Assembly (NCBI GenBank): GCA_030740765.1
Contig: JASLWR010000004.1
Coordinates: 24,873-88,872, forward strand
Direction: 5' to 3'
From: Thermoplasmatota archaeon
GTDB taxonomy: Archaea; Thermoplasmatota; Penumbrarchaeia; JASLWR01
Length of the DNA: 64,000 nt
In this document: positions 4,264-60,895 of the stretch, piece after piece
Position numbering within the stretch: the stretch's first letter is position 1
Layout: every line of letters begins with the position of its first letter
Position numbers and translations under genes: made by a program
Notes under the pieces: generated by a model
The model's database searches: none
What the model saw: the letters and a program-made list of their open reading frames with translations, nothing else
Told to the model about the DNA's origin: nothing

Positions 4264-7200
4264 CTAAATTGAATTGATTACCCCTTGCGTCTGGCATACC
4301 GGGCAGGTGACCAATGCCGGGAACTCGGCGATCTCCGCCATGTAATTATTGCCGCATGAATGACACTGCATCTGCAGGAATCCCCTTCGGTTACCGCCAC
4401 CGTCTGGTGGCGTAGGCCCGTTTACACTGCGCAACACCTTCGGCGTTGCTCCCCCCTCGGGAGCAAGCTCCCTACGGGGGAGAGGGGAAGCAGATTCTGC
4501 TTTTTCCTGAAGGAAGCTAGCTTCCGAAGGATGTAGCGGAGCGGAACGGTCTGCGGTCACCGAAGATGAAACCAACAGACCTGTCTGTTGGTGATTCATA
4601 GTTATCTCATTCGTCAATTGTGATGATGAGCCCTCCGGAGCCGGGGGAGCCATGTTTCCTTCCGGAACTGGCGGTGCGGCAGGCACCGTGGGTTCTTTAT
4701 ACATATCATCCAATGAAGAAAGATATGCATCGAGCTCGGACAGATCACTGGTCGGCGAAATACCTGCCGTGGGTGGACTAAGCCCAGCTGGGGCTTGGCT
4801 GGCAGTAGGGATCGAAGCCCCCTCCGGGGGGAACTGCGAGATTTCTCCCGGGGGAGATGAAGGTGATGGCGGTCCCGAAAAAAGCGTTCCCATGGCACCA
4901 ATGTCCGGTGAAGTGGGAGGGAGGACTGACAGATCGGGGCTTGTCATCGGGCTTGGTACCGCCGTATTAATAGTTGTTTGCTCTTCCATGGAAGCGGGTG
5001 CTGGAGGAAGTGCCATTCGTTCAAGATTTTGTACTCCCTGTTCGGTAGTGAATGAAGGAAGGGCATATGCCTGACCTGCCGTAAGATCGGTTCCTGGCCC
5101 CGTTTGATTGTAGAGAGGCTGTTGTGGTGCTTGAGCTTGACCTAATTGCGAAGAACCATACACGTCGGGTCCATGCGGGAGCAACGGGAGGGAGCCCTGT
5201 CCACCCGCCATCCCAACATATGGTGCCTGGAATTGGGGTGAGCCCCCGTATCCTTGCTGCCCGGGTGACATATACTGGCCCCGGGGATGGGGCAGCATAG
5301 CCTGCCCTTGTACTGAGTGCTGGATGGGTGCTTGGACGGATGGAGAAACCTCTTTTTCTTCTTTTTTCATTCTTTTTCTTACGATAAAAAATATTACCCC
5401 AATAAGTATGATCAGCAATAGAATTCCTCCGAGAATGAATAATAACAGTGAAGAATCTTTACTGAGAATACCCGCGGTTTCGGTTTCCACGATGTCTGGT
5501 TTACCGGGGGGACTATGGGCCCCATTATGGGGGTCGGTGCCTTTTTCACGCTCCAGACCGTCAGAGAAACCGTCCCCGTCGCTGTCGCGTTCATAATCGG
5601 CTGTAGCGCCCACCTCGATTTTAACTTTCTCGCTTACATTGTAACCGTGCCCGTCTGACACGAACAAGGTGATAGTATGTTTTCCTGGGGTCAGGATACC
5701 TCTCATTAGAACCTTTGAGCCGATTGAACGGTTCGCACTGACATTGGAGGACCAGTAATAGCTGAGATTGTCGCCGTCCTCATCACGTGATCCCGAGGCA
5801 TCAAAAAATATTTGACTGTCAAACCTGAAGTACACTCCCTGTTCGGGATCCGTGATTATCGCTTCAGGGCGGGAATTCACCCATACGCGGTACTCCCTAG
5901 ACTCATTGTAACCGGTACCCATCAGGTCGTCGGCGCGCCAGCGGATGAAATTTTCTTTTCCCCACTTGAATTCCACCTCCACCAGAACCTGTGCAGGATT
6001 TCCCGAAACCACGTTTTCCGCCTTTTTCCAGGGCCCAAAACTTTTACGGTCGCCCCCCGCCCCGTTCGCAACTGAATATTCAACCGTTGCCGGATCGACC
6101 CCTGAACCATCGTCCAGTATCTGGATGAAACATTCAACCGTCTCGCTGTCCCCGTACTCATCCCCGCCAGGTGTGAACGTCCCGAAATATACCGGAAAGG
6201 TATCAATTTTCAGATTGAATTTATCGGATAGGGTGAAGGGGTTGCCAACCACGTCCGTCCCACGGAACATAATGTAGTTATCTTTCCCTTCGGCATAACT
6301 GAATGTCACAGTGATTTCGTGTGTGTCTTCTCCAGCTTCAGTAATATTTTCGGGGTCAATCGGCATCCATTGGCCATAACTATTTTGACCCTCGGTGGAT
6401 ATCCTAGCTCCAAGGGTTGTAAGGTCCACTCCGCTTCCTGCGTCACTTACAGTGATAGTTGTGCTTATTTTATTTAGGTCGTACCATTCCTTTTGGGATG
6501 ATATCTCCTTGGCGAAATTGACCGGTGTAACGTCCACCTTCAAATTTACCGGAGAAGATTCAGCAAATCCGTTTCCCGAAATGTCCTTGGCACGCCATTT
6601 TATGTAATTGTCCTCTCCCTCAGGGAAGATGTATTTTACACTCGGAATTATAAGGTTTCCTCCTTCCGCGACCCATGCAGGTATCCATAGATCGGAACCC
6701 AGCCCCAGGCCTACTGAAACCGAGTATTCGATGGTACTGCCGTCGACTCCCGCTCCATCTCCGTCGTAGACCTCCACCGAGCAATCGATATCCGTGTGAT
6801 TGTGCCAAGAACCGTCCATGGGAGTATGGTTTGAAAAGACCGGCGCCGTCAGATCAACCAGTATGCTCGATGTGGCGGCCTCCCCAATGTTTCCCACCTT
6901 GTCCACGCACCACACGTAAATCTCAGCTTCTCCCTCGGTCAGCTTATCGATCTTGACCTCCGTATCATTGGTTAATGTCCCGTTAGTGGTTCCTGAATCG
7001 TCCATCTGGGAATAATAATATCCAAGGAGACCAGAAGCAGGGTCCTCAACGGCATCCCAGGTAACGTACATCTCGGGCTGATCCGTATTCCCCGTCTCCT
7101 TGTCCTTGAAACCTCCGGCGTGGCATATAAGATTGACCGGATACAGGGGTGCCTCAGCATCGATCTTCACGGGGAAGGTCAGATTAGTCATGCATATACC

Positions 7201-8751
7201 AGAGCCGGGGATGTTCTCAATGGTGATGAGATATTCCTCGTCCGGGTCGGTTACGTTTATCGAGGTGAAACCTATGTCGATATTTTCTCCCTTGCTATCA
7301 TTGTCCCACCAGGAATTTCCAACGCTGTCCATTACACGCACGTCGAAATAACCGTCTTCAGGGTATATGTTCGCAGAACCCGCGTATCTCACTTTGAGAT
7401 CCGATAAAGCCAATTTCTCGCTTCCTCTTATCCAGTCCCCTTCATCCAGTTCTCCCTGGAATATGCCTGTTAAACCTGGCGAGCCAAGCAATTCCATATC
7501 ATTTTCGACCCTGAACAGGTATGGGAAACGGTCCCGGGAGTTCTCACCAGTATTTGCTGTGATGTCCACGAAACAGTCCACCTGCCTTTCGTGAGTGAAA
7601 GAGAAGTTTATAATGAAGGTAAAATTGACCCACCACCGGTCCACAGCGTCATTGCTAACGGAACATTGGTTCGGAAGAAATCTCACGTGGCCGTCCGGAT
7701 CCTGAACTTTAAAAAATTGGCCCCGGGTCCAGTTGTAGCCAAGAGTTGCGTTTGTCGTGTTGTAGTCGAGATATACAAGAAGTTCGGAAACCTCATAGAG
7801 ATCTCTCGTGGCCGTGATGTTTACGCTGAGATTGTATGCCCGGTACTCGGCATAACATACCTTTTCCACCCCTCCCTCGCCCCTGAGTGCTACCTCGTCA
7901 ACGTGGGCCGTGATCTCCACGGCAAGCCATTTTATTACATTCAGAAAATAACGCTGGCAGTTGCCATTGGAATCCCAGTTGCCGCCAACCCCCGAATACG
8001 TCCGGCCCCTGCCGTATATGAAGATCATTGGGCTCTGACGGTTGTTGGCGTCCCCGATCCGGGTTGCCTGGGGAGCGATGTTGTTATCCCGCAGCTCGGA
8101 ATCAAATAGACCGTTACTGCCGGTGACGGGAGAATTCACACCGTCCCATATCTCGTGGTTGCCCACCTTGTTAAAAGAGAAACCTCCAGCATTGTCGCCT
8201 CTACCGATCCTGTTGGTATAACCGAACATATCTTCGAGAGCGATGTATCCCCCTTGAATGGGATCCTGCTGGTCTACCATCCCGCAGCTTTCGCTCCATA
8301 TACCGCCTCCAGCCTGAACCCAGTTCCGCACGTCCGCAGCCACCACCCTGCCGCGCCCCCTAGAACGGCCCAGGTACACCACGTCGTAATTTGCCAGAAC
8401 CGCGGCATTGAGGGTACCGCTGCACATCTCGGTTATTTCTATACCATTGTTTGTGAGATAGGTTTTGGGAATCGTCACGTAGCTGTTGCGCCCGCAGGAA
8501 TTTGTCCCGTCCCCCTGGTAGATTAGAAATTTAACGTTACCTCCACCCCGGCTCATTGGTGAAAGTTCCTTATTGACCGTAATATGATTATCCCCATTGG
8601 CGTCATTTACCTCTCCCCGCCATCCATTGAGAGTTGGTCCAATATCAGCAAGCAGTATTATAAACAGTATCGAAAATATCAGGCCGGAGACCACTTTATC
8701 TCTCATTTGCTTCAATTCCTTCCATCTCCAAAAAGACCCTGAACAACCCAC
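4264..8751 (-). CDS. Giant single-pass surface protein, paralog B (1495 aa). ThuA/GATase1-like head, Ig-like/PKD ectodomain, Ca-binding-like DSDGDGFSDGLERE, TM, cytoplasmic tail with C-terminal C4 zinc ribbon. Carries an in-frame 75-aa insertion before the Zn ribbon.
   Basis: Long ORF in the track. PKD motif FDASGSRDEDGDNLSYYW. TM segment LLLFILGGILLLIILIGVIFFIV. C-terminus MQCHSCGNNYMAEIAEFPALVTCPVCQTQG. The true start may be the internal Met MRDKVVSGLIFSILFIILL at about 8706, which gives a signal peptide. Confidence 0.85.
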   Translation of the reverse strand: MGCSGSFWRWKELKQMRDKVVSGLIFSILFIILLADIGPTLNGWRGEVNDANGDNHITVNKELSPMSRGGGNVKFLIYQGDGTNSCGRNSYVTIPKTYLTNNGIEITEMCSGTLNAAVLANYDVVYLGRSRGRGRVVAADVRNWVQAGGGIWSESCGMVDQQDPIQGGYIALEDMFGYTNRIGRGDNAGGFSFNKVGNHEIWDGVNSPVTGSNGLFDSELRDNNIAPQATRIGDANNRQSPMIFIYGRGRTYSGVGGNWDSNGNCQRYFLNVIKWLAVEITAHVDEVALRGEGGVEKVCYAEYRAYNLSVNITATRDLYEVSELLVYLDYNTTNATLGYNWTRGQFFKVQDPDGHVRFLPNQCSVSNDAVDRWWVNFTFIINFSFTHERQVDCFVDITANTGENSRDRFPYLFRVENDMELLGSPGLTGIFQGELDEGDWIRGSEKLALSDLKVRYAGSANIYPEDGYFDVRVMDSVGNSWWDNDSKGENIDIGFTSINVTDPDEEYLITIENIPGSGICMTNLTFPVKIDAEAPLYPVNLICHAGGFKDKETGNTDQPEMYVTWDAVEDPASGLLGYYYSQMDDSGTTNGTLTNDTEVKIDKLTEGEAEIYVWCVDKVGNIGEAATSSILVDLTAPVFSNHTPMDGSWHNHTDIDCSVEVYDGDGAGVDGSTIEYSVSVGLGLGSDLWIPAWVAEGGNLIIPSVKYIFPEGEDNYIKWRAKDISGNGFAESSPVNLKVDVTPVNFAKEISSQKEWYDLNKISTTITVSDAGSGVDLTTLGARISTEGQNSYGQWMPIDPENITEAGEDTHEITVTFSYAEGKDNYIMFRGTDVVGNPFTLSDKFNLKIDTFPVYFGTFTPGGDEYGDSETVECFIQILDDGSGVDPATVEYSVANGAGGDRKSFGPWKKAENVVSGNPAQVLVEVEFKWGKENFIRWRADDLMGTGYNESREYRVWVNSRPEAIITDPEQGVYFRFDSQIFFDASGSRDEDGDNLSYYWSSNVSANRSIGSKVLMRGILTPGKHTITLFVSDGHGYNVSEKVKIEVGATADYERDSDGDGFSDGLEREKGTDPHNGAHSPPGKPDIVETETAGILSKDSSLLLFILGGILLLIILIGVIFFIVRKRMKKEEKEVSPSVQAPIQHSVQGQAMLPHPRGQYMSPGQQGYGGSPQFQAPYVGMAGGQGSLPLLPHGPDVYGSSQLGQAQAPQQPLYNQTGPGTDLTAGQAYALPSFTTEQGVQNLERMALPPAPASMEEQTTINTAVPSPMTSPDLSVLPPTSPDIGAMGTLFSGPPSPSSPPGEISQFPPEGASIPTASQAPAGLSPPTAGISPTSDLSELDAYLSSLDDMYKEPTVPAAPPVPEGNMAPPAPEGSSSQLTNEITMNHQQTGLLVSSSVTADRSAPLHPSEASFLQEKAESASPLPRRELAPEGGATPKVLRSVNGPTPPDGGGNRRGFLQMQCHSCGNNYMAEIAEFPALVTCPVCQTQGVINSI
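4372..4596 (+). repeat. 225-nt hairpin-rich repeat element (MITE-like), inserted in frame within the paralog B coding sequence; second copy at 60781-60895.
   Basis: The stretch 4372-4400 (ctgcaggaatccccttcggttaccgccaccgtctggtgg) aligns with 60781-60820 (cgcaggaatcctcttcggtaacccccaccgtttggtgggg). Both copies end in ...ggaagcagattc(c)tgc...gatgaaacc(a/c)acaga...tctgt(t/g)ggtgattcat. Paralogs C and D read TNEITM-QCHSCGNNY without these 75 codons. Confidence 0.6.
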
Positions 8752-8772
8752 AAGTTGTGGGTATCATCCTCA

Positions 8773-8806
8773 GAAATATCAGTATGCACATGCATTCTGA
8801 TATTTC
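8773..8806 (-). terminator. 10-bp inverted repeat hairpin (gaaatatcag/ctgatatttc) in the spacer downstream of paralog C and upstream of paralog B.
   Basis: Perfect 10-bp stem with a 14-nt loop read directly; lies between the stop of 8879..13234 and the start of 4264..8751. Confidence 0.3.
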
Positions 8807-8878
8807 TACCGGATAAAACAACGTACAACCTGTATTTATATCTTATCCGAAGATGCAGCGGGAAGTCTTAAACCGAAG

Positions 8879-11800
8879 CTAGAGAGATTCGATCATTCCC
8901 TGTGTCTGGCAGACCGGGCAGGCGACCAGAGCCGGTAATTCCACTATCTCCGCTGAATAATTATTGCCGCAGGAATGACATTGCATGGTTATTTCATTCG
9001 TCACTGGAGCCGGGGCCCCCTCCGGAACCGATGGTATCGCTGGTGGAATCGCAGGTGGTGCAGTAGGCGATGCAACAGGTGGCGCAGGCTCTGGCGGTTT
9101 TGTCATGTCCTCGAGATATGCGAGATATGAATCAAGTTCGGACAGATCACCGGAACCCTCGGGTGGTACGGCAGGCACTTCCGGGATCATAGACGGGGTC
9201 GGCAGCGGTAATGGAAATACTGCTTCCACACCTGTAGGCGGCATTAGCGGCGGAGATATTGAAGGTGGTGCCGCTTCCATTGCATTGGGTGGTATTGGCG
9301 GTGCCGGTGATGAAGGTAGTGTATTATCCACTGGGGAAATATTTGTAGTATCAGCAATAGGCATCGGGGACCCAATATCGGGACCAAGTGGTGCCACGGA
9401 TGCCTGTATTGGAAATTCAAGACCTGTGAAAACCACTGGAGCGGGCGAAGGCTCGGGAGCAGGCGGAAGGGCCAATCTACCCAGTTCCTGCATTCCCTGG
9501 TCTGTTGAGAAAGTGGGAAGGAGATAGCTGCTGCCTCCTGCATATCCCGTATTCAAAGCTGCTGCCCCTGTCAGTGCCTGCCCGGGGGCGGCAGCCTGGA
9601 ACTGGACCGGGTTCACAAAACCGGGACCGGGAGCCAGCATCAAAGGCGGGGCTGGGGAACCCGGCATGCCGGCCATCGGCGCCGGCATAACTCCACCATA
9701 CCCTTGCACCAGCGGAGCATACTGCGCAGAATGCGGCCCCTGCCCGTATGGGGGCTGCCGGGGGAATGACGGCACTGGCGCCGCTACCTTCTCCTCTTTG
9801 GATTTCCTTTTTTTCCTGACTATGAAAAAGATGATCAGGATCAGTAATATGAGAAGCAGGATGCAGCCGAGTATAATTAAAAGCAGCGAAGAACTTTCTC
9901 CCAGTATCCCCGCACTTTCGGCAGGTACGATATCCGGCTCGCCCTCAGGGATCACGGCGCCGTTGTACGGATCGGTCCCGGATTCCCTCTCGAAACCGTC
10001 CGAGAAACCATCCCCGTCACTGTCCGTCTCGTAATCGGTCTTACTGCCGACCTCTATCCTTACATCCGTACTCTCGTTATAGCCGTGCCCGTCAAAAACG
10101 AACAACGTGATGATGTGTTTTCCGGGAGTCAATCTGCTGCCAAATAGGGCAAGGTGACTCATGGACTTGTTCGCGCTGACGTTGCTGGACCAGTAATAGC
10201 TAAGATTGTCCCCGTCCTCGTCGTATGAATCCGTAGCATCGAAATATATTTCCCTGTCGAATCTGAAATAGGATGCTTGATCAGGAGACGAAATTACTGC
10301 TTCCGGCCTGGAATTCACCCAAACTCTGTATGGTTTCGATATATTGTGACCTGTACCCACCTTATCGTCTGCACGCCAGCGGATGAAATTGTCCGGTCCC
10401 CAGTCGAACTCCAATTCCAGAAGAACCTGGGTAGGATTCCCGATGACCACGTTTACTACCTTTTTCCATGGTCTAAAACTATCATTGTCGCCTCCCGCCC
10501 CACTCGCCATGGAATACTCCACCGTTCCCGGGTCCACGCCTGAACCGTCATCCAATATCTCAACGAAACATTCAACAGTCTGCTGGTTGGAATATTCGTT
10601 CTCCTCCGGTGTGAAGGTGCCGAAATATACCGGCGAAGTATCTATTTTCAGATTGAATTTATCGGAAAGTGTGAAGGGATTGCCCACTATGTCCGTTCCC
10701 CTGAACATGATGTAGTTTTCGGTCCCTTCAGCATATGTGAATGTGACGCTTATCTCAAAGCCGTCTTCACCGGATTTGATTATATTTTCCGGTTCAATAC
10801 TCATCCACGAACGAAAGTCGGTTGGGCCCGACGTTGATATCCTCATTTCAAGACTCTCAGGGTCCACTCCGCTTCCTGCGTCGTTAACGGTGATCTTCGT
10901 AGTTATCGTTTTTTGGAGGTACCATTCCTCTTGTGGCGATATCGTTTGAGCGAAATTGACCGGAGTGTTGTCAATTTTTATATTTACGGGGGAGGATTCC
11001 ACGAAACCGTTTCCCGAAATGTCCTTGGCACGCCATTTTAGGTAATTGTTCTCCCCTTCGAGAAATACATATTTGACAACAGGTGTCATTGGTTCGGTCT
11101 TTTCGGGCATCCAGACGGGTATCCAGAGATCGAAACCGTGCACTCCGTTTTTGGACACTGAATATTCGATGGTGGCGCCATCGACACCGCCTCCCTTCCC
11201 ATCGTGGATATCAACCGAGCAATCGACATCCGTATGATTGTGCCATGAACCGTCCAAGGGAGTATAATTCGAAAAATAGGGTAATGACAGGTCAACCAGT
11301 ATCTCCGAGGCTGCGGCCCCACCGACATTCCCAACATTATCCACGCACCACACATATACCGGTACGGGTCCCTCGGGTAGCTCATTTATCTCGACCTCGG
11401 TTTCATTGGTAAACGATCCGTTCTCAGTGGTGGAATTATCCATAAGGGAATAATAATATCCTCTGAGACCCGAGGCAGGGTCTTCAACCTCATCCCAGGT
11501 GACGAAGACCTCTTGCTTGTTGGTATGTTCGGCGGACTTGCCTTTGAAGCTGTCGGGACGGCATTGGAGGTTCACCGGCGAAAGTGGCGCAGCCGCATCT
11601 ATTTTGAGGGGGAAATATAGATTCTTTGCACATACTCCTTCTTCCGGTATGTTCACTATGCTTATTTGATATTCCTCTTCCGGATCGGTGGCATTTCCGG
11701 ATATTGCCTCAATGGAAACGCTCTTACCGCTGGATTCGTTGTCCCACCATTCATTAGCCATTCTGTCCCGTACCACCACATCGAAGAAATTATCGTCCGG

Positions 11801-13234
11801 ATGAACATTCCCGGAACCTTCGTAGACCACGGTCATGTTGCTAAAAATCAGTTTTTCCTTCCCCCTTATCCAGTTTCCCCTATCAACAATACCCTGATAT
11901 TCACCCTCCACCACGGTCTCTCCCACGAGCTCAAGGTCATTTTCTACACGGAATAGATAAGGGAATCGATCAAGGTTGAATCTCCCGGAGCTTCCGGTTG
12001 TATTTATAAAACAATCTATAAGCTCCTCGTGAGGGAATGTGAAGTCTAGCACGAAGGAAAAATTTATCCACCATTTCTCCACATTATTGTTGGAAAACGC
12101 CGAATCACCCAGCAGTTCCAGATGATTTCCGAGGTCATGAACCTTGTAAAAGTTCTTTTGTGTTCCATTGAATCCGAGGCTTATGTTGGTGTTGTTGTAA
12201 TCTATGTAGATTCGGAGGTCGGAAAGATCGTCAAGAGATTCGAAGGTGGTGACGTTGATACCCAGTTTATAGGAACGGTACCCGGCATAGCATACTGCGC
12301 TTTTATTATCCGAATCAATCAGGTTGACCGATTCGGGCTCGGGGGGACGGGCCGTGGGGAAATTATCCTTAATCATATCGATATATTTTACCATCTGCAG
12401 AAGTTCGTTGTTTCCGCGGTTGCCCCAGTCGAAGGTCATCATGTTCATCATGACATACCCTTCGTCCAGCACGTATTCTATGAAAGCCGGTTTATTGTTC
12501 GCGTTGGACCAGAGAATGTCATTCCACTTGTTGGTTTCGGGATTTGTTCCGAGGTTCGCTCCACCGGAGTCCGCAAGCATACCCGGCGCGGTAACATAAC
12601 CGTGGCAGGTGGTACCCCAGCCCTGAAAATTATTGGCATTAAGTCCATTTCCGCCGTAGCCCTGACCGGTAATCCATTCGTGATCGTTATCAGCCACCGT
12701 AGGGTTCTCGTCGGTGTTGCCGGATTGCTGGTAACTACCGAAGTTCGAACCACCCGGTCCGGTAACATCCTGTCCGGAATTATGCGCGGCATTTGCAACG
12801 AAGATACCACCTTTCTTCACATATTTCTCGATAATACCCCCGTTCATCATTGTCTTTAATGATCCGTCTGCAATATCACCCTGGCAGCCAGTATAAATAG
12901 CATAATAGCGGTCGAAGAGGTACTCTGAATTGTGCTGGGCCGTTACCCCGGGCTGCTCCACATCAAAAGGGATTCCTCTGTTTGTTAGATGATTTTGTAG
13001 AGTGTTGGTACGATCCCCGCCCGAAGAGCAGACCAGCACCTTGTTCGCGGCTCTACTGGACCACTGTTTTCCGCCAATTGTGCCTGCATTTCGAATTTTC
13101 TCATCAATTGATTCAACGGTACTTATGGAATGGTCGCTCCAATCCGTGAGTAATGGGACACTAATTGCAGGGATTATCAATAGTATACAAAGTAACAGGG
13201 GAAGACTGCGTAAGTGGGAAATCACGCTTTTCAT
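8879..13234 (-). CDS. Giant single-pass surface protein, paralog C (1451 aa); same architecture, ThuA/GATase1-like head, C-terminal Zn ribbon MQCHSCGNNYSAEIVELPALVACPVCQTQG.
   Basis: Long ORF in the track. Signal peptide MKSVISHLRSLPLLLCILLIIPAISVP. Motifs FDATDSYDEDGDNLSYYW (PKD) and DSDGDGFSDGFERE. TM helix, then a P-rich tail. Confidence 0.85.
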   Translation of the reverse strand: MKSVISHLRSLPLLLCILLIIPAISVPLLTDWSDHSISTVESIDEKIRNAGTIGGKQWSSRAANKVLVCSSGGDRTNTLQNHLTNRGIPFDVEQPGVTAQHNSEYLFDRYYAIYTGCQGDIADGSLKTMMNGGIIEKYVKKGGIFVANAAHNSGQDVTGPGGSNFGSYQQSGNTDENPTVADNDHEWITGQGYGGNGLNANNFQGWGTTCHGYVTAPGMLADSGGANLGTNPETNKWNDILWSNANNKPAFIEYVLDEGYVMMNMMTFDWGNRGNNELLQMVKYIDMIKDNFPTARPPEPESVNLIDSDNKSAVCYAGYRSYKLGINVTTFESLDDLSDLRIYIDYNNTNISLGFNGTQKNFYKVHDLGNHLELLGDSAFSNNNVEKWWINFSFVLDFTFPHEELIDCFINTTGSSGRFNLDRFPYLFRVENDLELVGETVVEGEYQGIVDRGNWIRGKEKLIFSNMTVVYEGSGNVHPDDNFFDVVVRDRMANEWWDNESSGKSVSIEAISGNATDPEEEYQISIVNIPEEGVCAKNLYFPLKIDAAAPLSPVNLQCRPDSFKGKSAEHTNKQEVFVTWDEVEDPASGLRGYYYSLMDNSTTENGSFTNETEVEINELPEGPVPVYVWCVDNVGNVGGAAASEILVDLSLPYFSNYTPLDGSWHNHTDVDCSVDIHDGKGGGVDGATIEYSVSKNGVHGFDLWIPVWMPEKTEPMTPVVKYVFLEGENNYLKWRAKDISGNGFVESSPVNIKIDNTPVNFAQTISPQEEWYLQKTITTKITVNDAGSGVDPESLEMRISTSGPTDFRSWMSIEPENIIKSGEDGFEISVTFTYAEGTENYIMFRGTDIVGNPFTLSDKFNLKIDTSPVYFGTFTPEENEYSNQQTVECFVEILDDGSGVDPGTVEYSMASGAGGDNDSFRPWKKVVNVVIGNPTQVLLELEFDWGPDNFIRWRADDKVGTGHNISKPYRVWVNSRPEAVISSPDQASYFRFDREIYFDATDSYDEDGDNLSYYWSSNVSANKSMSHLALFGSRLTPGKHIITLFVFDGHGYNESTDVRIEVGSKTDYETDSDGDGFSDGFERESGTDPYNGAVIPEGEPDIVPAESAGILGESSSLLLIILGCILLLILLILIIFFIVRKKRKSKEEKVAAPVPSFPRQPPYGQGPHSAQYAPLVQGYGGVMPAPMAGMPGSPAPPLMLAPGPGFVNPVQFQAAAPGQALTGAAALNTGYAGGSSYLLPTFSTDQGMQELGRLALPPAPEPSPAPVVFTGLEFPIQASVAPLGPDIGSPMPIADTTNISPVDNTLPSSPAPPIPPNAMEAAPPSISPPLMPPTGVEAVFPLPLPTPSMIPEVPAVPPEGSGDLSELDSYLAYLEDMTKPPEPAPPVASPTAPPAIPPAIPSVPEGAPAPVTNEITMQCHSCGNNYSAEIVELPALVACPVCQTQGMIESL

Positions 13235-13390
13235 TCAATTCAACCTCTTTCCATACTGACCGACAGCCCTTACCGCCCGGCGTTGGTCTGCCTTTGGAGT
13301 CATATGATAACAAATCCATAGTCTTATGAATAAATAATGCTTTCGTTTGAAAAGGATAAAACCAGCACGAATATTCTCATCGATGCCGGA

Positions 13391-16300
13391 TCATATTGAT
13401 TCTATAACTCCTTGCGTCTGGCAAACCGTGCAGGTGACCAGTGCAGGGAACTTAGCAATCTCCGCTATATAGTTATTGCCGCAGGAATGGCACTGCATAG
13501 TAATTTTATTAGTCGGGGGAACCGGACTTTCTTCCGGAACCGGGGGTACGTCGGAAGGTGTTGGCTCCGGTGGCGGGGACAATCCACCCAGGGTAGTTAG
13601 ATATGTGTCGAGTTGGGATAAATCACTATCCGCTGAAGTGTCTATTGGAGGTACGCCAAGCACTAAAGATGAAGTGCTGCTAGGGGAAATAGTGGTGGGT
13701 TCCGGTGGAGCCGGGGGTGCTTCACCACTTAGCGGAATGGGTGCTGGAGGCGATTGGAAAGGGTTTTCCATTGCACTTACCCCAGGTAATAATGCAGGTT
13801 GGGCTGAAAGATCCGGAGCGGTCATCTGGGTTGGAGTGAACGCTCCAATCATTCCTTGATCTTCCGAAGGAGGTGGTCCCGGCGGTAAGGCCATTCTGTC
13901 GAGGTTCTGCGGCCCCTGATCGGTACTGAATAATGGTAATGAATATGCGGTACTGCCTGTCATCCCTGTCCCAGACTGACCGTAAAGAGCCAGCTGCTGT
14001 GGCTGAGTTTGCTGGACTTGATTCGGGCCGGAATATTGAGTGTTTGATATATCAGGTACTATCGACTGTATTAGAGGAGGATTTTGAGCTCCCCGCATCC
14101 CCATAACGGCTGCCTGATATTGCGCCATTTCCCCGTACCCTTTCTGCTCAACAGGAATAAATTGACCCTGGGGATAAGGATGCTGGGCCGGTCCGTACAT
14201 TGATTGCGGCATAGGTGACCGGATCGGAACCGAAACATCTCTCACTTCGTCCTTTTTTCTTCTCCTCACAATAAATATGATGACCAAAACCAGTATGGTC
14301 AAAAATAACACAATACCAAGAATGACGAAGAATAGCGAAGAGCCTCCTCCGAGTATGCCACCGCTTTCGGAGATGACGATATCAGGCTCGCCATCCGGGC
14401 TAATGGCACCGTTGTATGGGTCGGATCCTGATTCCCGTTCCAGTCCGTCTGAGAATCCGTCCCCGTCGCTGTCCCGCTGAAAATCGACCTGGCTGATCAC
14501 CTCTAGCTTAACTTTCGTACTCTCGTTGTAACCGTGTCTGTCCGAAACGAATAATGTGATCGTATGTTTTCCAGGGGCTAATCCGGCGCTGAAATAGGCG
14601 TCGAATCCGATTGAACGATTCACACTGACATTTGAGGACCAGTAATAGCTAAGATTGTCCCCATCCTCGTCACTTGAACCGGAAGCATCAAAAGTAATTT
14701 CGCTATCGAACCTGAAATACGACCCTGGATCGGGTGAGGCGATTGCCGCCTCCGGCCTGGAATTCACCCATACCCGGTATGGCAGCGATATGTTGAGCCC
14801 GGTACCCATCATGTCGTCGGCACGCCACCGGATAAAATTGTCATATCCCCAATCGAATTCCAGCTCTATCAGAACCTGCGTGGGATTTCCCGCAACAACA
14901 TTTACCACCTTTTTCCATGGCCCGAATATCTTTTCGTCGCCCCCCATCCCGGTGCCCCCTGCTCCATTTGCCACGGAATACTCAACCGTCGCTGGATCCA
15001 CCCCCGAACTGGCATCGAGTATCTGGATGAAACATTCCACCTTCTCGTTGTCTGCATATTCGTTCTCATCCGGTGTGAATAAACCAAAATAAATGGGAGA
15101 TGTATCGATTTTCAGATTGAATTTATCGGAGAGAGTGAAGAGATTGCCTACCATATCGGTTCCTCTGAACATAATGTAGTTATCCTTTCCCTCCGCGTAT
15201 TTGAAAGTCACTGTTATCTCAAAGCCGTCTTCACCGGATTCGCTGATGTTTTCGACATCTACGGACTCCCACCGGCCGAAATCGTTGGGGCTAGACGTGG
15301 ATATCCTTGCTCCAAGACTGTCCGGGTTCACACCGCTTCCAATGTCGTTAACCAATATCTTTGTGGTTATTTCTTCATGATCATACCATTCCACCTGAGG
15401 TGATATCAGCTTTGCAAAATTGATAGGAGTGGTGTCCACTTTTATATTGTACGAGGGTGATTCGACAAACCCATTTCCAGTGATGTCCTTTGTGCGCCAT
15501 TTAATATAATTTTCCTCGCCCTCCTGAAATACGTATTTGATATTTGGCACCATGGGTTCATTCAACTCGGGTATCCACGCGGGAATCCAGAAATCGAAAC
15601 CGTGCATCCCATCATTGGACACGGAGTACTCGATAGTGCTGCCGTCCACACCGGATCCAGTGCCATCATAAATCTCAATCGAGCAGTCGATATCAGTATG
15701 ATTGTGCCATGAACCATCCTCCGGGGTGTGATTCGAAAATACTGGCGGTGTCAGGTCCACAAGTATACCGGATGAGGCGGCCGTGCCGATATTTCCGACC
15801 TTGTCCACACACCAAACGTAAATTTCCGCGAATTCCTCGTTCAGTTTCTCGATCTTGACCTCTGTGACATTGGTGAATGTCCCGTTACCAGTTCCCGACT
15901 TATCCACCGGGGAATAATAATAGCCCATCAGACCCGATGAGTGGTCCTCAACCGGATCCCATGTGACGAACATCTCGGCGCGATTGGTATGCTCGGTCTC
16001 CTTGTCCTTGAAATCATTGGCATGGCACTTTAAGTTGACGGGGAAGAGAGGCGGGTCCGCATCTATTCTTAGTGGAAAGGTCAGATTTGTCATGCAAATG
16101 CCTGTTCCGGGTATGTTCTCGATGGTGATGAGATATTCTTCTTCCGGGTCCGTATCGTTTCCGGAAGTGATGTTTATCTCGATATTTTCTCCCATGCTCT
16201 CGTTATCCCACCAGGCGCTCCCGTTATTATCGGCAACCCTGACATCGAAATAGTCATCATCGGGGTAGATGTCCGGAGCACCTGCATATCGTACCTTGAG

Positions 16301-17620
16301 ATTGCTGACCTTAATCCTTTCCCTGCCCCGTATCCAATCGTTCTTTTTCAACTCACCCTGATATTCACCTGTAAGATCGGGAATACCAACCAGCTCCAGG
16401 TCATTCTCGACCTTGAAAAGGTGCGGAAAGCGGTCCGTTCTTACAATTCCCGTGATGGCAGCAGTACTGATATAGCAGTCCACCAGTTCTTCATGTGGGA
16501 ATGTGAAATTGAAAATTACTGAAAAATTCAACCACCACCGCTCGACCCCGTCCGTGGAAACCTTGGAATCGTCAACATTCAATTGAACGTGCCCGTCCAA
16601 GTCCTGATATTTGTAGAAGCGAGATTGTGTCCAGTTGTAGCATAGTGTAGCATTGGTAGTATTATAATCAAGGAAAACCTTGACCTCGGAAACCTCGGTA
16701 AGGTCCCTTGCGGAGGTGACATTCACGCTGAGGGTGTAGTTTCTATGACGGGCATAGCATATATTATTCCCGTCACCCTGTCCCAAAATGGCTGCGTTAT
16801 CGGTATAGGCCGTGAGGTCCACTTCCAGCCAACATGCTACTGGCGTCCCACCCTGGTTCTGACCAACCGTGAGAAGAACTTCGGAGCCGAGCGGAATGGT
16901 GGTTATCTCACCATGGGACGCGGAACTACCGGAGAACGATGGCCGGTTCATGTTTCTAACCATGGGATGATTCACGGATGCCACGAAATTATGGCTATTA
17001 CCATTTCCATTTGTCCTTACACCGAAAGGACCGGGGACACCCCTGGACCACCGGCGTTGGTAATTCGTACCGAACATGTCTATCAATATTCCACCGTCGT
17101 TCACGTATTTCTCCATTGAAGGGACCAGTGACTCCATCTGGTTCAGATGCTGGTTCGGCTGGTACTCGGAAATAATGATCATCCGGTAAATGTTCGGATC
17201 GAAATCGTTTGCATTGATCCCGCCAGCGCTTTTCTGGGTGAATTGTATTCCTCTGTTGTTCATCTCCCGGCGCCAGCCGTCAGACCATCCCTGGTGATCC
17301 CATATGATAAGTATGGCTCCCGAATCCGCATGGGTGGGCCATAACCAATCGAAAGTATTGATGATAAAATAACGGGAATGTTGGCCGTTGCCGTAGCCGT
17401 AACTTGCTATGGTCCCCGTGACAAAATAAATGCCTTTGTCACCAGCGGTACGTTTGTTGGACGAGATGGGCGGAGGCTTTGAGGGGCTCTTTACGTTCAA
17501 CCCCACATCGTGGTTTTCGCTGAGAAGTATTTCAGAGCAAATAGTAAGATATCCCGTTCCTATGAAACACAAAACAACAGCTATCGACACCACCACGGGC
17601 CATGGATTCGTTCTACTCAT
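13391..17620 (-). CDS. Giant single-pass surface protein, paralog D (1409 aa); same architecture, C-terminal Zn ribbon MQCHSCGNNYIAEIAKFPALVTCTVCQTQG.
   Basis: Long ORF in the track. Signal peptide MSRTNPWPVVVSIAVVLCFIGTG. Motifs FDASGSSDEDGDNLSYYW (PKD) and DSDGDGFSDGLERE. TM segment, then a P/Q-rich tail. Confidence 0.85.
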   Translation of the reverse strand: MSRTNPWPVVVSIAVVLCFIGTGYLTICSEILLSENHDVGLNVKSPSKPPPISSNKRTAGDKGIYFVTGTIASYGYGNGQHSRYFIINTFDWLWPTHADSGAILIIWDHQGWSDGWRREMNNRGIQFTQKSAGGINANDFDPNIYRMIIISEYQPNQHLNQMESLVPSMEKYVNDGGILIDMFGTNYQRRWSRGVPGPFGVRTNGNGNSHNFVASVNHPMVRNMNRPSFSGSSASHGEITTIPLGSEVLLTVGQNQGGTPVACWLEVDLTAYTDNAAILGQGDGNNICYARHRNYTLSVNVTSARDLTEVSEVKVFLDYNTTNATLCYNWTQSRFYKYQDLDGHVQLNVDDSKVSTDGVERWWLNFSVIFNFTFPHEELVDCYISTAAITGIVRTDRFPHLFKVENDLELVGIPDLTGEYQGELKKNDWIRGRERIKVSNLKVRYAGAPDIYPDDDYFDVRVADNNGSAWWDNESMGENIEINITSGNDTDPEEEYLITIENIPGTGICMTNLTFPLRIDADPPLFPVNLKCHANDFKDKETEHTNRAEMFVTWDPVEDHSSGLMGYYYSPVDKSGTGNGTFTNVTEVKIEKLNEEFAEIYVWCVDKVGNIGTAASSGILVDLTPPVFSNHTPEDGSWHNHTDIDCSIEIYDGTGSGVDGSTIEYSVSNDGMHGFDFWIPAWIPELNEPMVPNIKYVFQEGEENYIKWRTKDITGNGFVESPSYNIKVDTTPINFAKLISPQVEWYDHEEITTKILVNDIGSGVNPDSLGARISTSSPNDFGRWESVDVENISESGEDGFEITVTFKYAEGKDNYIMFRGTDMVGNLFTLSDKFNLKIDTSPIYFGLFTPDENEYADNEKVECFIQILDASSGVDPATVEYSVANGAGGTGMGGDEKIFGPWKKVVNVVAGNPTQVLIELEFDWGYDNFIRWRADDMMGTGLNISLPYRVWVNSRPEAAIASPDPGSYFRFDSEITFDASGSSDEDGDNLSYYWSSNVSVNRSIGFDAYFSAGLAPGKHTITLFVSDRHGYNESTKVKLEVISQVDFQRDSDGDGFSDGLERESGSDPYNGAISPDGEPDIVISESGGILGGGSSLFFVILGIVLFLTILVLVIIFIVRRRKKDEVRDVSVPIRSPMPQSMYGPAQHPYPQGQFIPVEQKGYGEMAQYQAAVMGMRGAQNPPLIQSIVPDISNTQYSGPNQVQQTQPQQLALYGQSGTGMTGSTAYSLPLFSTDQGPQNLDRMALPPGPPPSEDQGMIGAFTPTQMTAPDLSAQPALLPGVSAMENPFQSPPAPIPLSGEAPPAPPEPTTISPSSTSSLVLGVPPIDTSADSDLSQLDTYLTTLGGLSPPPEPTPSDVPPVPEESPVPPTNKITMQCHSCGNNYIAEIAKFPALVTCTVCQTQGVIESI

Positions 17621-29651: not shown

Positions 29652-31208
29652 ATCCAGTGATGACAAGATAGAAATACCATCTTTGTTTATCGGTTTTTAC
29701 CAAACAAAAAACAAAGAGGTATTTCCATGTCAATAATAGAGAGCACCCTTAATAATTTTTTCTACTGGTCGATACTACGAGAAATATTTTACTCGTTCCC
29801 CCATGAGTATGAATTCACCAAGAGGGGAACCATCAGAAGGATCGAAAGACCAATTTGTCCTCGTTGTGGGAAACCCATGGTAAAGAATGGATTCAATTCC
29901 TACACAAAGAAAGGATTGGGCATAGTCAAGGTCGGAAAATGGCGTTGCACAAAGTGCAAGGTCTCTCTTGAAGAAGACAAAACATTCTGGGAAAATCTCA
30001 AGGATGAGTTCTTTGAGGTGTTAGTTCACATAACCAAGATTCTCAAAGATCACAAGGTTTCCTTCCAGGGGATCAGCGACGTATTCGCATTGGTCTATCC
30101 AAGGTCCAGAGAAACGGTCCGTCTTCAATTCACGAAGAATATTGATGAGGTCGAAATACCAGTTGATACCAATTTCTTCGTGATACATTACGATGAGCAA
30201 CACCCAAGGAAAGGTAGATGCCAGAAATTCAGATTGACATTACTTGATTCAAGTTCCAAGGAGCCTATCGCGGATGAACTCTTCGATGATAAAAGTACCG
30301 AGACCATTGAAAAGTTCCTGGCAAAATATATCGACCCCGAAAAACCTGTTTATATCGTTACCGATCTTGACCCGCGTTACCCAGGCATGTTCGAACGCTT
30401 CTTTACTAATGTTTATTATCATCAACCTTGCTTGACACACCTGAACAAGCGGATAGTAAACGATTTCCCAAGGAAATGCACCTTCCAGCTGGAGTATCTG
30501 AAATACCGTCTGCTGAACATATTCTACGATAGGACCAAGGAACTCCAGTATCTGAAACGAATGATCGAGAAGGAGGAAAAGAGGAAGGATAAAACGGGTT
30601 ATAAACAGTGGTTGAAACGAGCATGGAAGTGTTTCCGTGACCACATTCACAAGTGGAAAAAACGGAGACGTAGGAATAAGGAAAAATTGAAAATGCGTTC
30701 GTACAACGGCTCGGTTCAGGTCTTCAATAAATTGGTTGACGAGTATGATGATTTTCCCGATTATGTCCAGAAACGAATAGATATGATCTCGAAAAACTGG
30801 GAGAATCTCAACACGTTTCGAATGATAAAGGATGGTCCGGCCACGAACAATGCAATCGAAAATTATTACTCTACATCACTGAAAACCCATCAGAAAAGGC
30901 AGTACACCTCCGACGAGGGGATTGAGAGACAGATGAAACTCTCCTGGATGAAGCGGGCAGGAATGTTGAAATACGAAGGCAAAACCCTGCTTCAGATTAT
31001 GATAAAGTTCATGCCGTTCAGGGATCCGGGATAAAACTTGGATAATTTCCGACTATTCGTCATCATTGGTAGTGGATACTTTATTTGGATTTGGATTGAG
31101 AGATGTTTTCAAGAAGGGTCGGGGTGAGATGAGAGAATTTTCGCGCGGTTTAAAAGAAAATTGATGGGAAAAAAGGACGAAATTGACATGATGAATCTTA
31201 TGAATTTG
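29652..31208 (+). mobile_element. Putative IS element (~1.56 kb) carrying one transposase gene; ends not resolved.
   Basis: A transposase ORF is flanked on both sides by two in-frame fragments of what looks like one surface-protein gene (29007-29648 and 31209-31700). Terminal inverted repeats could not be confidently identified by eye. Confidence 0.45.
29727..31034 (+). CDS. Transposase with N-terminal zinc ribbon (IS1595/ISH6-like signature)
   Basis: Zn ribbon CPRCGKPMVKNG...CTKCK. C-terminal TNNAIENYYSTSLKTHQKRQY resembles the TNxIEsxnsxLKR motif of IS1595-type transposases. Family assignment is tentative. Confidence 0.65.
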   Translation: MSIIESTLNNFFYWSILREIFYSFPHEYEFTKRGTIRRIERPICPRCGKPMVKNGFNSYTKKGLGIVKVGKWRCTKCKVSLEEDKTFWENLKDEFFEVLVHITKILKDHKVSFQGISDVFALVYPRSRETVRLQFTKNIDEVEIPVDTNFFVIHYDEQHPRKGRCQKFRLTLLDSSSKEPIADELFDDKSTETIEKFLAKYIDPEKPVYIVTDLDPRYPGMFERFFTNVYYHQPCLTHLNKRIVNDFPRKCTFQLEYLKYRLLNIFYDRTKELQYLKRMIEKEEKRKDKTGYKQWLKRAWKCFRDHIHKWKKRRRRNKEKLKMRSYNGSVQVFNKLVDEYDDFPDYVQKRIDMISKNWENLNTFRMIKDGPATNNAIENYYSTSLKTHQKRQYTSDEGIERQMKLSWMKRAGMLKYEGKTLLQIMIKFMPFRDPG

Positions 31209-31700
31209 CTAAATAACGAGAAAAAAGGTTTGTGCCATCCGATTATAGTCGTTTTGGACATCTATCCCAGCATCATTTCCGCTGGAACCGCTATTTGTTA
31301 TATTAAAACCCGTTATATTAACCCATGCGGACGTGATCTGTACCACATCCCCGTTTCCGCTTCCGTTGATGGTGGTATTCGCAGTTCCATTGCCGATTAG
31401 AGTGATAGTACGGTTAATGATCACGTTCTCACTATAATTTCCTGCATAAACATATATGGTATCGCCAGGATTGGAGGCATTTATTGCATCCTGAATTGTT
31501 ACATGGTCCTGCCCTCCACTGGCATCAACGATAATGTTCCCGCGTTTTCCGCTGATAATACCTTTCTGATCGTTACCCTTGATTATTCTCGATTCTTGGT
31601 AGTTTGTTTCGTTTCTTAACCACTCTGTATTATTGGCGAGACTGATGAATATTCCATTAACTAAGAACAACACAAATAAGATGCATATAATTTTTTTCAT
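31209..31700 (-). pseudogene. 5' fragment of a secreted right-handed beta-helix (pectin-lyase-fold/NosD-like) protein, truncated after 163 aa at the IS junction.
   Basis: Signal peptide MKKIICILFVLFLVNGIFISLA. Beta-helix repeats NRTITLIGNGTANTTINGSGNGDVVQITSAWVNITGFNITNSGSSGNDAGIDV. Stop (cta) at 31209-31211. Confidence 0.55.
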
Positions 31701-60774: not shown

Positions 60775-60780
60775 TACATC

Positions 60781-60895
60781 CGCAGGAATCCTCTTCGGTA
60801 ACCCCCACCGTTTGGTGGGGGCGGAGAAGAGGAAGCAGATTCCTGCGTTTCCGAGGATGAAACCCACAGATTCATCTGTGGGTGATTCATTTATT
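60781..60895 (+). repeat. Intergenic copy (~115 nt) of the hairpin-rich repeat also found inserted at 4372-4596
   Basis: Its first 22 nt (cgcaggaatcctcttcggtaac) pair as an imperfect long inverted repeat with 60827-60848 (gaagaggaagcagattcctgcg); perfectly paired arms are cgcaggaatc/gattcctgcg and ctcttc/gaagag. Inner hairpins cccccaccgtttggtggggg and cccacagattcatctgtggg. Ends in gtgattcat, like the copy at 4596. Confidence 0.55.

What the first reader, a model, noticed from the sequence alone, without database searches (positions are those of the whole stretch)
4372..4596. In-frame insertion of a 225-nt hairpin-rich repeat element inside the coding sequence of paralog B, just before the zinc ribbon
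Paralogs C and D read ...TNEITMQCHSCGNNY. Paralog B reads ...TNEITM-[75 aa]-MQCHSCGNNY.
- The extra 225 nt are a multiple of 3 and contain no stop codon.
- They are a copy of the intergenic element at 60781-60895, with shared start (c(t/g)gcaggaatcc(c/t)cttcggt), shared internal block and shared end (...tctgt(t/g)ggtgattcat).
- The insert encodes a Pro/Gly/Ser-rich peptide that blends into the disordered tail, so the protein is probably still functional.

This would be a MITE-like element exapted as coding linker sequence.
Basis: seen in the sequence. Interest (0 to 1): 0.75.

Follow-up and report, generated by a model that had tools for sequence, protein, structure and literature searches.

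The report
In-frame mobile hairpin element in archaeal gene
A small hairpin-rich mobile DNA element of marine Thermoplasmatota archaea sits inside a surface-protein gene without breaking it, because the family's copies are multiples of three bases long and stop-free in two reading frames, an archaeal counterpart of the Rickettsia palindromic elements.

Summary
Gene B (4264..8706, minus strand) carries 228 extra bases (76 codons, not 225/75) at 4372-4599. The intergenic relative is 60780-60890 (111 nt).

It belongs to a multi-copy element family of marine Thermoplasmatota: about 19 distinct sites, with sizes of 111, 165, 219, 228, 342 and 375 nt.
- The core has two covarying hairpin domains, conserved on one strand only.
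- Optional hairpin modules sit in its loops.
- There are no terminal inverted repeats.
- There is no target duplication beyond a possible AT.
- Every copy lies just 3' of 5'-TNYAT.

This anatomy matches IS200/IS605-type "PATE" elements, but no transposase partner was found.

Nearly all lengths are multiples of three. Frames -0 (which opens with the element's terminal ATG) and +2 are stop-free.

In-frame copies interrupt five unrelated protein families:
- the giant surface-protein paralogs
- a Fic protein (sense orientation)
- a DUF4350 protein
- a TfoX_N protein
- N-terminal fusions exactly at the start codons of three genes (PPS, ParE-like, DUF4258-like)

In B the insert lies in a predicted disordered linker ahead of a confidently folded, conserved zinc ribbon. 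It is fixed in all five assemblies that cover it.

Translation through the insert is inferred, not shown, and "exaptation" is unproven. I rate it a new variant of the RPE/PATE kind, of moderate interest.

The parts
4372..4599 (+). 228-nt copy of the element (CTGCAGGAATCC...GGTGATTCAT). It lies antisense to gene B and is read by the gene in the element's frame -0 as 76 codons (MNHQQ...GFLQ).
4372..4412 (+). 5' core block: the 5' strands of helices P1/P1' plus hairpin P2 (CCGCCACC-GTCT-GGTGGCG).
4413..4483 (+). Extra module 'Z' (about 63 nt net), inserted after P2. It contains the hairpin GCAACACCTTCGGCGTTGC (4431-4449). The same hairpin recurs in another copy (L145), and the module's peptide recurs in P0186.
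4484..4500 (+). Core middle block GGGGAAGCAGATTCTGC (3' strands of P1'/P1).
4501..4559 (+). Module X1 (54 nt net, two hairpins). It is about 90% identical to the X1 module of the intergenic copy in L127.
4560..4599 (+). 3' core domain: CCGAAGATGAA-ACCAACAGA-CCTG-TCTGTTGGT-GA-TTCAT. The terminal TTCAT pairs with ATGAA. On the gene strand the terminal CAT is the ATG that opens the inserted codons.
4367..4371 (+). Target pentanucleotide TGCAT (consensus TNYAT) immediately 5' of the element. Its CAT is the Met codon of ...ITM|QCHSCG on the gene strand.
4264..8706 (-). Gene B: a 1480-aa surface-protein paralog. It has a signal/TM segment, large extracellular domains, a TM helix, a low-complexity tail, the insert, and a C-terminal zinc ribbon.
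4264..4371 (-). Zinc-ribbon coding segment downstream of the insert (MQCHSCGNNY...CPVCQTQGVINSI plus stop). It is conserved and folds at pLDDT 93-95.
8984..8989 (-). Empty site in paralog C (plus strand ...TTGCAT|GGTTAT..., between 8986 and 8987).
13496..13501 (-). Empty site in paralog D (plus strand ...CTGCAT|AGTAAT..., between 13498 and 13499).
60780..60890 (+). Canonical 111-nt core copy, 5 nt after the stop codon of the signal-peptide-peptidase gene (58738..60774). Left flank is TACAT. It is identical to copies at six or more other loci.
8739..8803 (-). Weak, diverged relative of the 3' domain, lying between paralogs C and B (20 bits, E about 0.003-0.008). Membership is uncertain.

Best explanation
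Window 4372-4599 is one copy of a previously undescribed family of small non-autonomous mobile elements in marine 'Candidatus Thermoplasmatota' archaea.

**Anatomy of the family (shown)**
- The core is 111 nt and has two hairpin domains.
- Optional hairpin modules (X, Y, Z and nested ones) sit in its loops and linker.
- There are no terminal inverted repeats and no target duplication longer than 2 nt.
- The family keeps a conserved 3' end, TTCAT.
- Every copy lies immediately 3' of 5'-TNYAT-3'.

**Mobilisation (inferred, about 45% likely)**
The element moves like an IS200/IS605-type PATE: as single-stranded DNA, cut and joined by a Y1 (HUH) transposase supplied in trans. Such an enzyme would recognise the strand-specific subterminal hairpins and the short target.

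**Why it can sit in genes (shown, except for translation itself)**
- Total lengths are multiples of three.
- Two phases are stop-free. Frame -0 begins with the element's own terminal ATG. Frame +2 is on the other strand.
- An insertion in those phases therefore adds 37-76 residues instead of truncating the protein.
- Insertion at a start codon puts a new in-frame ATG exactly where the old one was.

**What happened in gene B (inferred)**
The element landed, antisense, on the Met codon just before the C-terminal zinc ribbon. It is read through as part of a disordered linker. It is tolerated and fixed in the population, with no evidence of a new function.
For: **Family and mobility**
- One metagenome scan gave 17 loci, about 12 distinct sites, 11 of them in a single metagenome.
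- The covariance model and protein look-ups added more copies.
- Contigs end or diverge exactly at ...GATTCAT.

**Empty versus filled sites**
- Paralogs C and D are empty, and so are 30 of 33 homologues.
- Removing the 165-nt copy from the Fic gene gives 317 aa, the length of nearly all of the 120 listed homologues (of 544 found), with full-length coverage.
- The TfoX_N Pfam match improves from 54 to 63 bits, and from profile positions 13-59 to 13-79, once the insert is removed.

**Target and ends**
- The left flank is T(16/17) N Y(17/17) A(17/17) T(17/17); the right flank shows no preference.
- The best terminal match between the two ends is 7 of 20.
- Two further sites read TTCAT and TCCAT.
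- The published PATE definition fits: no inverted repeats, near-terminal palindromes, no target duplication, a 4-6-nt targeting oligonucleotide (PMC3119063).

**Structure**
- 96.7% of cells are paired, against 46-57% in the slid controls.
- Nine pairs carry compensatory changes; 0 of 500 shuffles reach the observed values.
- Every one-sided change gives a U-G or G-U pair on the + strand, which would be an A-C mismatch on the - strand.
- Module X has six covarying pairs.

**Frame neutrality**
- Lengths are 111, 165 (three variants), 219, 228, 342 and 375 nt.
- Frames +2 and -0 are stop-free in the core, X1, X2, Y and XY variants. Shuffles give both frames open with probability 0.002-0.04.

**Coding insertions**
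- B, and three paralogs in a second genome, carry it at the same codon.
- Fic (sense, frame +2), DUF4350 and TfoX_N carry internal copies.
- Start-codon fusions occur in the PPS, ParE-like and DUF4258-like genes.

**Gene B itself**
- The insert is identical in all five cluster members that reach the C-terminus.
- AlphaFold gives pLDDT 43-56 for the insert and 93-95 for the zinc ribbon.
Against: - No autonomous partner was found. There is no IS200-type TnpA in the 284 kb held, and every metagenome hit had both ends within 376 nt.
- A 2-nt AT duplication, or insertion inside an AT, cannot be excluded from sequence alone.
- Covariation also extends to the optional modules. A transposase should not need those, which hints at an RNA-level role or at templated hairpin repair.
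- Translation of the insert is inferred from frame and conservation. No transcript or peptide data were available.
- Two decayed copies break the multiple-of-three rule (163 and 376 nt), and the 342-nt copy has stops in all frames.
- The same codon is occupied in four paralogs of two genomes by different subfamily variants. This requires either gene conversion or a hot spot, and I could not resolve which.
Confidence: 0.75

Rival explanations
1. The repeats are primarily genes or motifs for a functional structured RNA transcribed from the + strand. Examples would be a regulatory or stabilising RNA, a protein-binding RNA, or a transposon-derived guide-RNA scaffold whose guide is the right flank. 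On this view the copy in gene B is incidental.
For: - Conservation is strand-specific, and every one-sided change gives a G-U pair on the + strand.
- Covariation extends to the optional module X.
- UUCG, CUUG and CUCG loops occur on the + strand.
- The linker motif UUUCCGAGGAUGAAACC is conserved even in diverged copies.
Against: - No Rfam family matches at the gathering scores or at E up to 10.
- Orientation relative to neighbouring genes is mixed: sense 3' UTR, antisense 3' UTR, divergent promoter regions, and inside genes in both orientations. No single cis-role fits.
- Near-identical copies, assembly breaks at the element's ends and a fixed target pentanucleotide are marks of transposition.
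- Single-stranded DNA recognition by a Y1 transposase also gives strand-specific hairpin conservation that tolerates G-T pairs.
Confidence: 0.15
2. The insert is removed from B's mRNA, either as an archaeal bulge-helix-bulge intron or as a self-splicing or self-cleaving RNA. On this view the protein never contains the 76 residues.
For: The element is highly structured on both strands. Introns in archaeal protein-coding genes are known (my own knowledge, not tested here).
Against: - In the gene-strand fold the two junctions are not brought together. Each lies in its own local hairpin, so no bulge-helix-bulge motif appears.
- No ribozyme or intron family matches.
- Splicing would not need a multiple-of-three length or a stop-free frame. 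Yet all six genes with internal copies (B, three paralogs in the second genome, DUF4350, TfoX_N) plus Fic keep both.
- Old, degenerate copies (P0013 and the 1437-aa paralog) have diverged and still keep the frame open.
Confidence: 0.03
3. The 76-aa segment is an ancestral coding part of the paralog family, and the dispersed copies derive from this gene.
For: Four paralogs in two genomes carry an insert at exactly the same codon.
Against: - 30 of 33 family members lack it, including B's closest homologue P0004 (67% identity, full coverage).
- The same element, with the same ends and the same target, lies in unrelated genes and in many intergenic spacers.
- B's copy carries family-wide modules (X1, Z) that are also found in intergenic copies elsewhere.
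Confidence: 0.02

Closest known systems
Rickettsia palindromic elements (RPEs; Ogata et al. 2000, as summarised in PMC10969869)
   Same: - Both are multi-copy, roughly 100-150-bp hairpin-forming repeats.
- Both are found in frame inside unrelated protein-coding genes as well as between genes.
- Both encode a conserved peptide, and the host proteins appear to remain intact.
   Different: - The host is archaeal (marine Thermoplasmatota), and no sequence relationship to RPEs was tested or is expected.
- This family has a defined 5-nt target (TNYAT).
- It has a terminal ATG that recreates a start codon.
- It has two usable phases on opposite strands.
- It is built from modules, and total lengths stay multiples of three even in intergenic copies.
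PATEs, palindrome-associated transposable elements derived from IS200/IS605-type transposons (Haloquadratum walsbyi; PMC3119063)
   Same: - No terminal inverted repeats.
- Near-terminal palindromes.
- No target duplication.
- Too short to encode a transposase.
- Insertion next to a short targeting oligonucleotide.
- Archaeal host.
   Different: - No parent IS605-type element with matching ends was found here.
- In the passages of PMC3119063 read here, PATEs are not described as frame-neutral or as in-frame coding insertions.
- In this family the two hairpin domains are not copies of each other.
Classical prokaryotic MITEs (e.g. Correia, ERIC, Nezha; review PMC10969869)
   Same: Both are small, non-autonomous and multi-copy. 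Both occasionally give in-frame fusions with host ORFs.
   Different: MITEs are defined by terminal inverted repeats and usually a target-site duplication. Both features are absent here.
Transposon-end guide RNAs of IS200/IS605 elements (TnpB omega/reRNA)
   Same: Both are structured RNA-like scaffolds that end exactly at the transposon's right end, with the target motif lying on the left flank. This comparison rests on my own knowledge.
   Different: No tnpB gene is adjacent to any copy. No Rfam IS605-related motif matches. The function as a guide RNA is untested.

Membership tests
PATE / IS200-IS605-type non-autonomous element | No terminal inverted repeats | tested here: met
   The first 20 nt match the reverse complement of the last 20 nt at no more than 7 of 20 positions, at any offset from -3 to +3.
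PATE / IS200-IS605-type non-autonomous element | Near-terminal palindromes (subterminal hairpins) | tested here: met
   The 3' hairpin ends 8 nt from the right end, and the 5' hairpin domain starts at nt 2. Pairing is 96.7%, with 9 covarying pairs.
PATE / IS200-IS605-type non-autonomous element | No target-site duplication | tested here: inconclusive
   Empty and filled sites (paralogs C and D against B; 317-aa Fic homologues against P0037) differ by exactly the element. Copies with a TAT left flank still end in CAT, which excludes a duplication of 3 nt or more. A 2-nt AT duplication cannot be excluded.
PATE / IS200-IS605-type non-autonomous element | Insertion adjacent to a short (4-6 nt) targeting sequence on one side only | tested here: met
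   The left flank is TNYAT at 18 of 19 sites (ATCAT at the other), and NYAT at all 19. The right flank shows no preference.
PATE / IS200-IS605-type non-autonomous element | Ends shared with an autonomous tnpA/tnpB element in the same genomes | tested here: inconclusive
   None was found. All 17 metagenome hits to the 3' end have the 5' end within 376 nt. tblastn with a recalled IS200 TnpA sequence found nothing in 284 kb. No whole genome was available.
Classical MITE | Terminal inverted repeats and a target-site duplication | tested here: not met
RPE-like in-frame palindromic repeats (a functional class, not a sequence family) | The same repeat inserted in frame in unrelated protein-coding genes, leaving the ORFs intact | tested here: met
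   - Surface-protein paralogs.
- Fic.
- DUF4350 and TfoX_N.
- Start-codon fusions to the PPS, ParE-like and DUF4258-like genes.
RPE-like in-frame palindromic repeats (a functional class, not a sequence family) | Sequence homology to the Rickettsia RPE families | not tested
   No RPE sequences were compared. The hosts are in different domains of life, so homology is not expected.
Archaeal bulge-helix-bulge intron | Bulge-helix-bulge motif formed by the two junctions | tested here: not met
   In the minimum-free-energy fold of the gene strand, each junction lies in a separate local hairpin. Only this one fold was examined.
Any described RNA family (Rfam 15) | Covariance-model match at the gathering score | tested here: not met
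   There were 0 matches in the window at gathering scores. The best E-values on the two copies were 0.4 or higher, all far below the gathering scores.

The most novel reading that the evidence does not exclude
The element lineage is adapted for life in a streamlined, gene-dense genome.
- Its length is held at a multiple of three.
- Two phases are kept stop-free.
- Its target (TNYAT, which contains CAT, the complement of ATG) and its own terminal ATG mean that an insertion on a Met or start codon regenerates an in-frame ATG at the same position. This would preserve leaderless or coupled translation initiation.
- Copies inside genes would then act as long-lived refuges from which the family can reseed.

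This would be a 'stealth' single-stranded-DNA transposon that creates protein linkers and N-terminal extensions in archaea.
Probability: 0.35. Interest if true: 0.75.

Novelty: new variant of a known kind. Interest (0 to 1): 0.55.

Why it matters
**Biology.** As far as the searchable literature shows, in-frame palindromic elements of the RPE type have not been described in archaea or in marine Thermoplasmatota. This family shows how selfish DNA can persist in compact genomes by being harmless to reading frames. It is also a ready source of disordered linkers and N-terminal extensions.

**Practical consequences.**
- The element breaks or mis-joins metagenome assemblies at its ends (L005, L006, L126, L128, L129).
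- It creates spurious small ORFs in MAG annotations (P0001, P0002, P0186).
- It inflates protein lengths (B, Fic, DUF4350, TfoX_N).

**Possible use.** If the mobilising enzyme is found, this would be a very small (111-nt) substrate with a defined target for single-stranded-DNA transposition.

Tried and rejected
1. **Genome-contig scan.** The pattern GCAGGAATCCNCTTCGG had only 16 specified bases, too few for 596 Gb. Just L064 was a true copy.
2. **Peptide profile in the word-indexed protein search.** Only 5 candidates and 2 small ORFs came back, and even B was missed. The exhaustive representative search later did better.
3. **Exact look-up of B from the GTG start.** Not on record. The ATG at 8706 is the start that was called.
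4. **Rfam.** Nothing credible at gathering scores or at E up to 10.
5. **Viral contigs.** 0 matches.
6. **Search for a Y1 transposase.** tblastn with an IS200 TnpA sequence recalled from memory found nothing in the 284 kb held. This is weak, because little sequence was searched and the query was recalled.
7. **Single-sequence fold of the 219-nt variant.** It gave an alternative global pairing, so module architecture rests on alignments and not on that fold.
8. **C/D-box or kink-turn reading of the GAUGA...UGAU motif.** I considered it by eye and dropped it, having no test and no Rfam support.
9. **Diversity-generating retroelement (template and variable repeat).** Rejected, because the differences between copies are not adenine-specific and are compensatory within hairpins.
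10. **Helitron-like or IS91-like insertion inside an AT.** Sequence alone cannot distinguish this. I kept it as a sub-alternative of the mobilisation step.
Full report
**1. The observation**

Gene B runs on the minus strand from 8706 (ATG) to 4264. The 1480-aa product is on record as P0003. Its tail reads ...QLTNEIT-MNHQQTGLLVSSSVTADRSAPLHPSEASFLQEKAESASPLPRRELAPEGGATPKVLRSVNGPTPPDGGGNRRGFLQ-MQCHSCGNNY... Paralogs C (8879..13234) and D (13391..17620) read ...TNEITMQCHSCGNNY.

In the nucleotide alignment B has 228 extra columns, which is 76 codons. Written on the plus strand the insert is CTGCAGGAATCC...GGTGATTCAT, at 4372-4599. It is preceded by ...CACTGCAT.

The intergenic relative is 60780-60890 (111 nt). 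It starts 5 nt after the stop codon of a signal-peptide-peptidase gene.

The two copies share a 41-nt 5' block, a middle block and a 40-nt 3' block. B's copy has two additional segments. The 5' motif occurs twice in the window against 0.12 expected by chance. Both copies fold much better than shuffled sequence, with z-scores of -7 to -8.

**2. It is a dispersed repeat family**

- Loci carrying the identical peptidase protein, from six assemblies, all hold the 111-nt copy. One contig ends exactly at ...GATTCAT and another diverges right after it.
- A metagenome scan with the 3' block gave 17 loci, about 12 distinct sites. Eleven lie on different contigs of one metagenome.
- A covariance model (R1) and protein look-ups added further copies in L136, L145, L142-144, L146 and L147. 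They also found diverged relatives in L128 and, weakly, at window 8739-8803.
- Source names place the organism in 'Candidatus Thermoplasmatota archaeon' MAGs. B is MDP6154845.1.

**3. Anatomy**

The core is 111 nt. Domain 1 (nt 2-68) is a long interrupted hairpin. A conserved linker, UUUCCGAGG, follows. Domain 2 (nt 78-111) is a hairpin whose outer stem pairs AUGAA with the terminal UUCAU.

On ten distinct sequences:
- 96.7% of cells are paired, against 46-57% when the partners are slid.
- Nine pairs carry compensatory changes.
- No shuffle out of 500 reaches the observed values.

Every one-sided change gives a U-G or G-U pair on the + strand. On the - strand these would be A-C mismatches, so the structure is conserved on one strand only.

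The larger variants carry hairpin modules in loops or in the linker:

| Module | Net size | Position | Notes |
|---|---|---|---|
| X | +54 nt | linker | two subtypes with six covarying pairs |
| Y | +54 nt | loop of domain 1 | |
| nested in Y | +156 nt net | inside Y | |
| Z | +63 nt | after hairpin P2 | seen in B |

A 342-nt copy has still other pieces. B's X1 module is about 90% identical to that of an intergenic copy (L127). Its Z hairpin and Z peptide recur in other copies.

**4. Ends and target**

- There are no terminal inverted repeats.
- Across 19 sites the five bases to the left are T-N-Y-A-T, with TACAT the commonest. The right flank is unconstrained, and the element always ends in TTCAT (CTCAT once).
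- Empty and filled sites differ by exactly the element (C and D against B; 317-aa Fic homologues against P0037).
- Copies with a TAT left flank still end in CAT. This rules out a duplication of 3 nt or more. A 2-nt AT duplication remains possible.

These are the defining features of PATEs, the transposase-less relatives of IS200/IS605-type elements described in Haloquadratum (PMC3119063). Strand-specific hairpins fit single-stranded-DNA transposition.

The partner transposase was not found. That step is therefore inferred, at about 45%.

**5. Frame neutrality**

Total lengths are 111, 165 (three different variants), 219, 228, 342 and 375 nt, plus further 111- and 165-nt copies inside genes. 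All are multiples of three. Two decayed copies, of 163 and 376 nt, are the exceptions. Single indels are not all multiples of three, but their sums are.

Frames +2 and -0 have no stop in the core, X1, X2, Y and XY variants. Under shuffling, both are open with probability 0.002-0.04 per variant. Frame +2 stays open over all 375 nt of L133, where the shuffle probability is 0.004. The variants share sequence, so these probabilities are not independent.

**6. Other coding insertions**

- **Second genome, same codon.** L064 and L141 come from the same region of a second genome. There, three of five arrayed paralogs carry a 111-nt copy at the same codon as B. Two of these are near-identical degenerate copies (the 1437-aa paralog and P0013). 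The third is canonical (the 1427-aa paralog).
- **Fic protein.** A Fic protein of the same MAG as the window (P0037/P0164, 372 aa) equals the 317-aa family plus a 55-aa insert. The insert is a 165-nt copy in sense orientation, read in frame +2.
- **DUF4350 and TfoX_N.** An exhaustive search with the -0 peptide found a DUF4350 protein with a 165-nt copy in its tail. It also found a TfoX_N protein split by a 111-nt copy. Both were confirmed at the DNA level, with targets TCCAT and TTCAT.
- **Start-codon fusions.** The element abuts the native start codon of three genes:
  - A phosphopantothenate-synthetase gene, where a TTTTATAAA box lies about 25-33 nt upstream of the element's own ATG.
  - A ParE-like toxin gene, where the element lies exactly between the upstream gene's TAA and the toxin's ATG.
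  - A DUF4258-like gene.

The target contains CAT and the element ends in CAT. An antisense insertion on an ATG therefore recreates an in-frame ATG at the same position. Whether that ATG is used is inference.

**7. Gene B itself**

- All five members of B's 90%-identity cluster that reach the C-terminus carry the identical insert.
- AlphaFold, run on the last 199 residues with 26 homologues, gives pLDDT 43-56 and no secondary structure for the insert. It gives pLDDT 93-95 for the zinc ribbon.
- The zinc ribbon downstream of the insert is as conserved as in insert-free paralogs. This argues that ribosomes read through in frame.
- B's closest homologue in the other genome (P0004, 67% identity) is empty at this site.
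- B's copy shares some derived bases with the P0013 copies but belongs to the X1 subfamily. Gene conversion and repeated hits at one codon therefore both remain possible.

**8. Comparison and verdict**

- Functionally this is an archaeal counterpart of the Rickettsia palindromic elements (PMC10969869).
- Anatomically it is a PATE-like element, not a classical MITE.
- It matches no Rfam family.
- No paper in the library links such elements to marine Thermoplasmatota.

I rate the finding a new variant of a known kind, with interest 0.55.

Noticed in passing
window 8739-8803 (-): A short sequence between paralog C's stop and B's start resembles the element's 3' domain and linker (TTTCTGAGGATGATACCCACAACTTGTGGGTTGTTCAG; 20 bits, E about 0.003-0.008). 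It could be a relic, a diverged mini-copy or chance.
   Followed up: partly
window 4264-17620 (-), continuing below 4087; L141 5595-24332: A tandem array of 1350-1500-aa surface-protein paralogs. Their N-terminal domains differ (LamG-like, olfactomedin-like and others). All share a TM helix, a Pro/Gln-rich tail and a C-terminal CxxC...CxxC zinc ribbon. The near-identical tails of two neighbours in L141 indicate gene conversion.
   Followed up: partly
window 37216-38628 (+): The 470-aa product matches the BrxL-like Lon protease of BREX systems (Pfam BrxL_ATPase 1.9e-93, BrxL_N 3.5e-25). This may be a defence-system remnant in an archaeal MAG.
   Followed up: no
window 30001-32000: G+C drops to 0.40 here, against 0.42-0.54 in the rest of the window. 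The 435-aa ORF at 29727..31034 has no Pfam match. This may be foreign DNA.
   Followed up: no
L145 1922-2263 (-) and L145 1743-1925 (+): A 342-nt copy lies against the end of an HSP70-like gene. The element's terminal ATGA supplies that gene's TGA stop codon (frame -1). A 91-aa ORF in L137 ends the same way.
   Followed up: partly
L133 2857-3231 versus L134 99-474: The 375-nt and 376-nt copies have the same right flank but unrelated left flanks. This points to recombination at the element, a strain rearrangement or an assembly chimera.
   Followed up: no
window 4431-4449 and L145 1954-1972: The hairpin GCAACACCT(TC/AT)GGCGTTGC occurs in B's Z module and also in another copy, at a different place in the element (the 3' domain). 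Hairpin sub-modules therefore appear to be shuffled between positions.
   Followed up: partly
P0171, P0172 (short contigs carrying the Fic gene): Fragments of the Fic gene run into the 111-nt core version of the element instead of the 165-nt version, and then the contig ends. This is either a real length polymorphism or an assembler walking into the commonest repeat variant.
   Followed up: no
L128 1558-1662 (-): A diverged family member (26 bits) keeps CCGCAGGAA and GTTTCCGAGGATGAAACCCACA, but its stems differ. This suggests older subfamilies exist.
   Followed up: no
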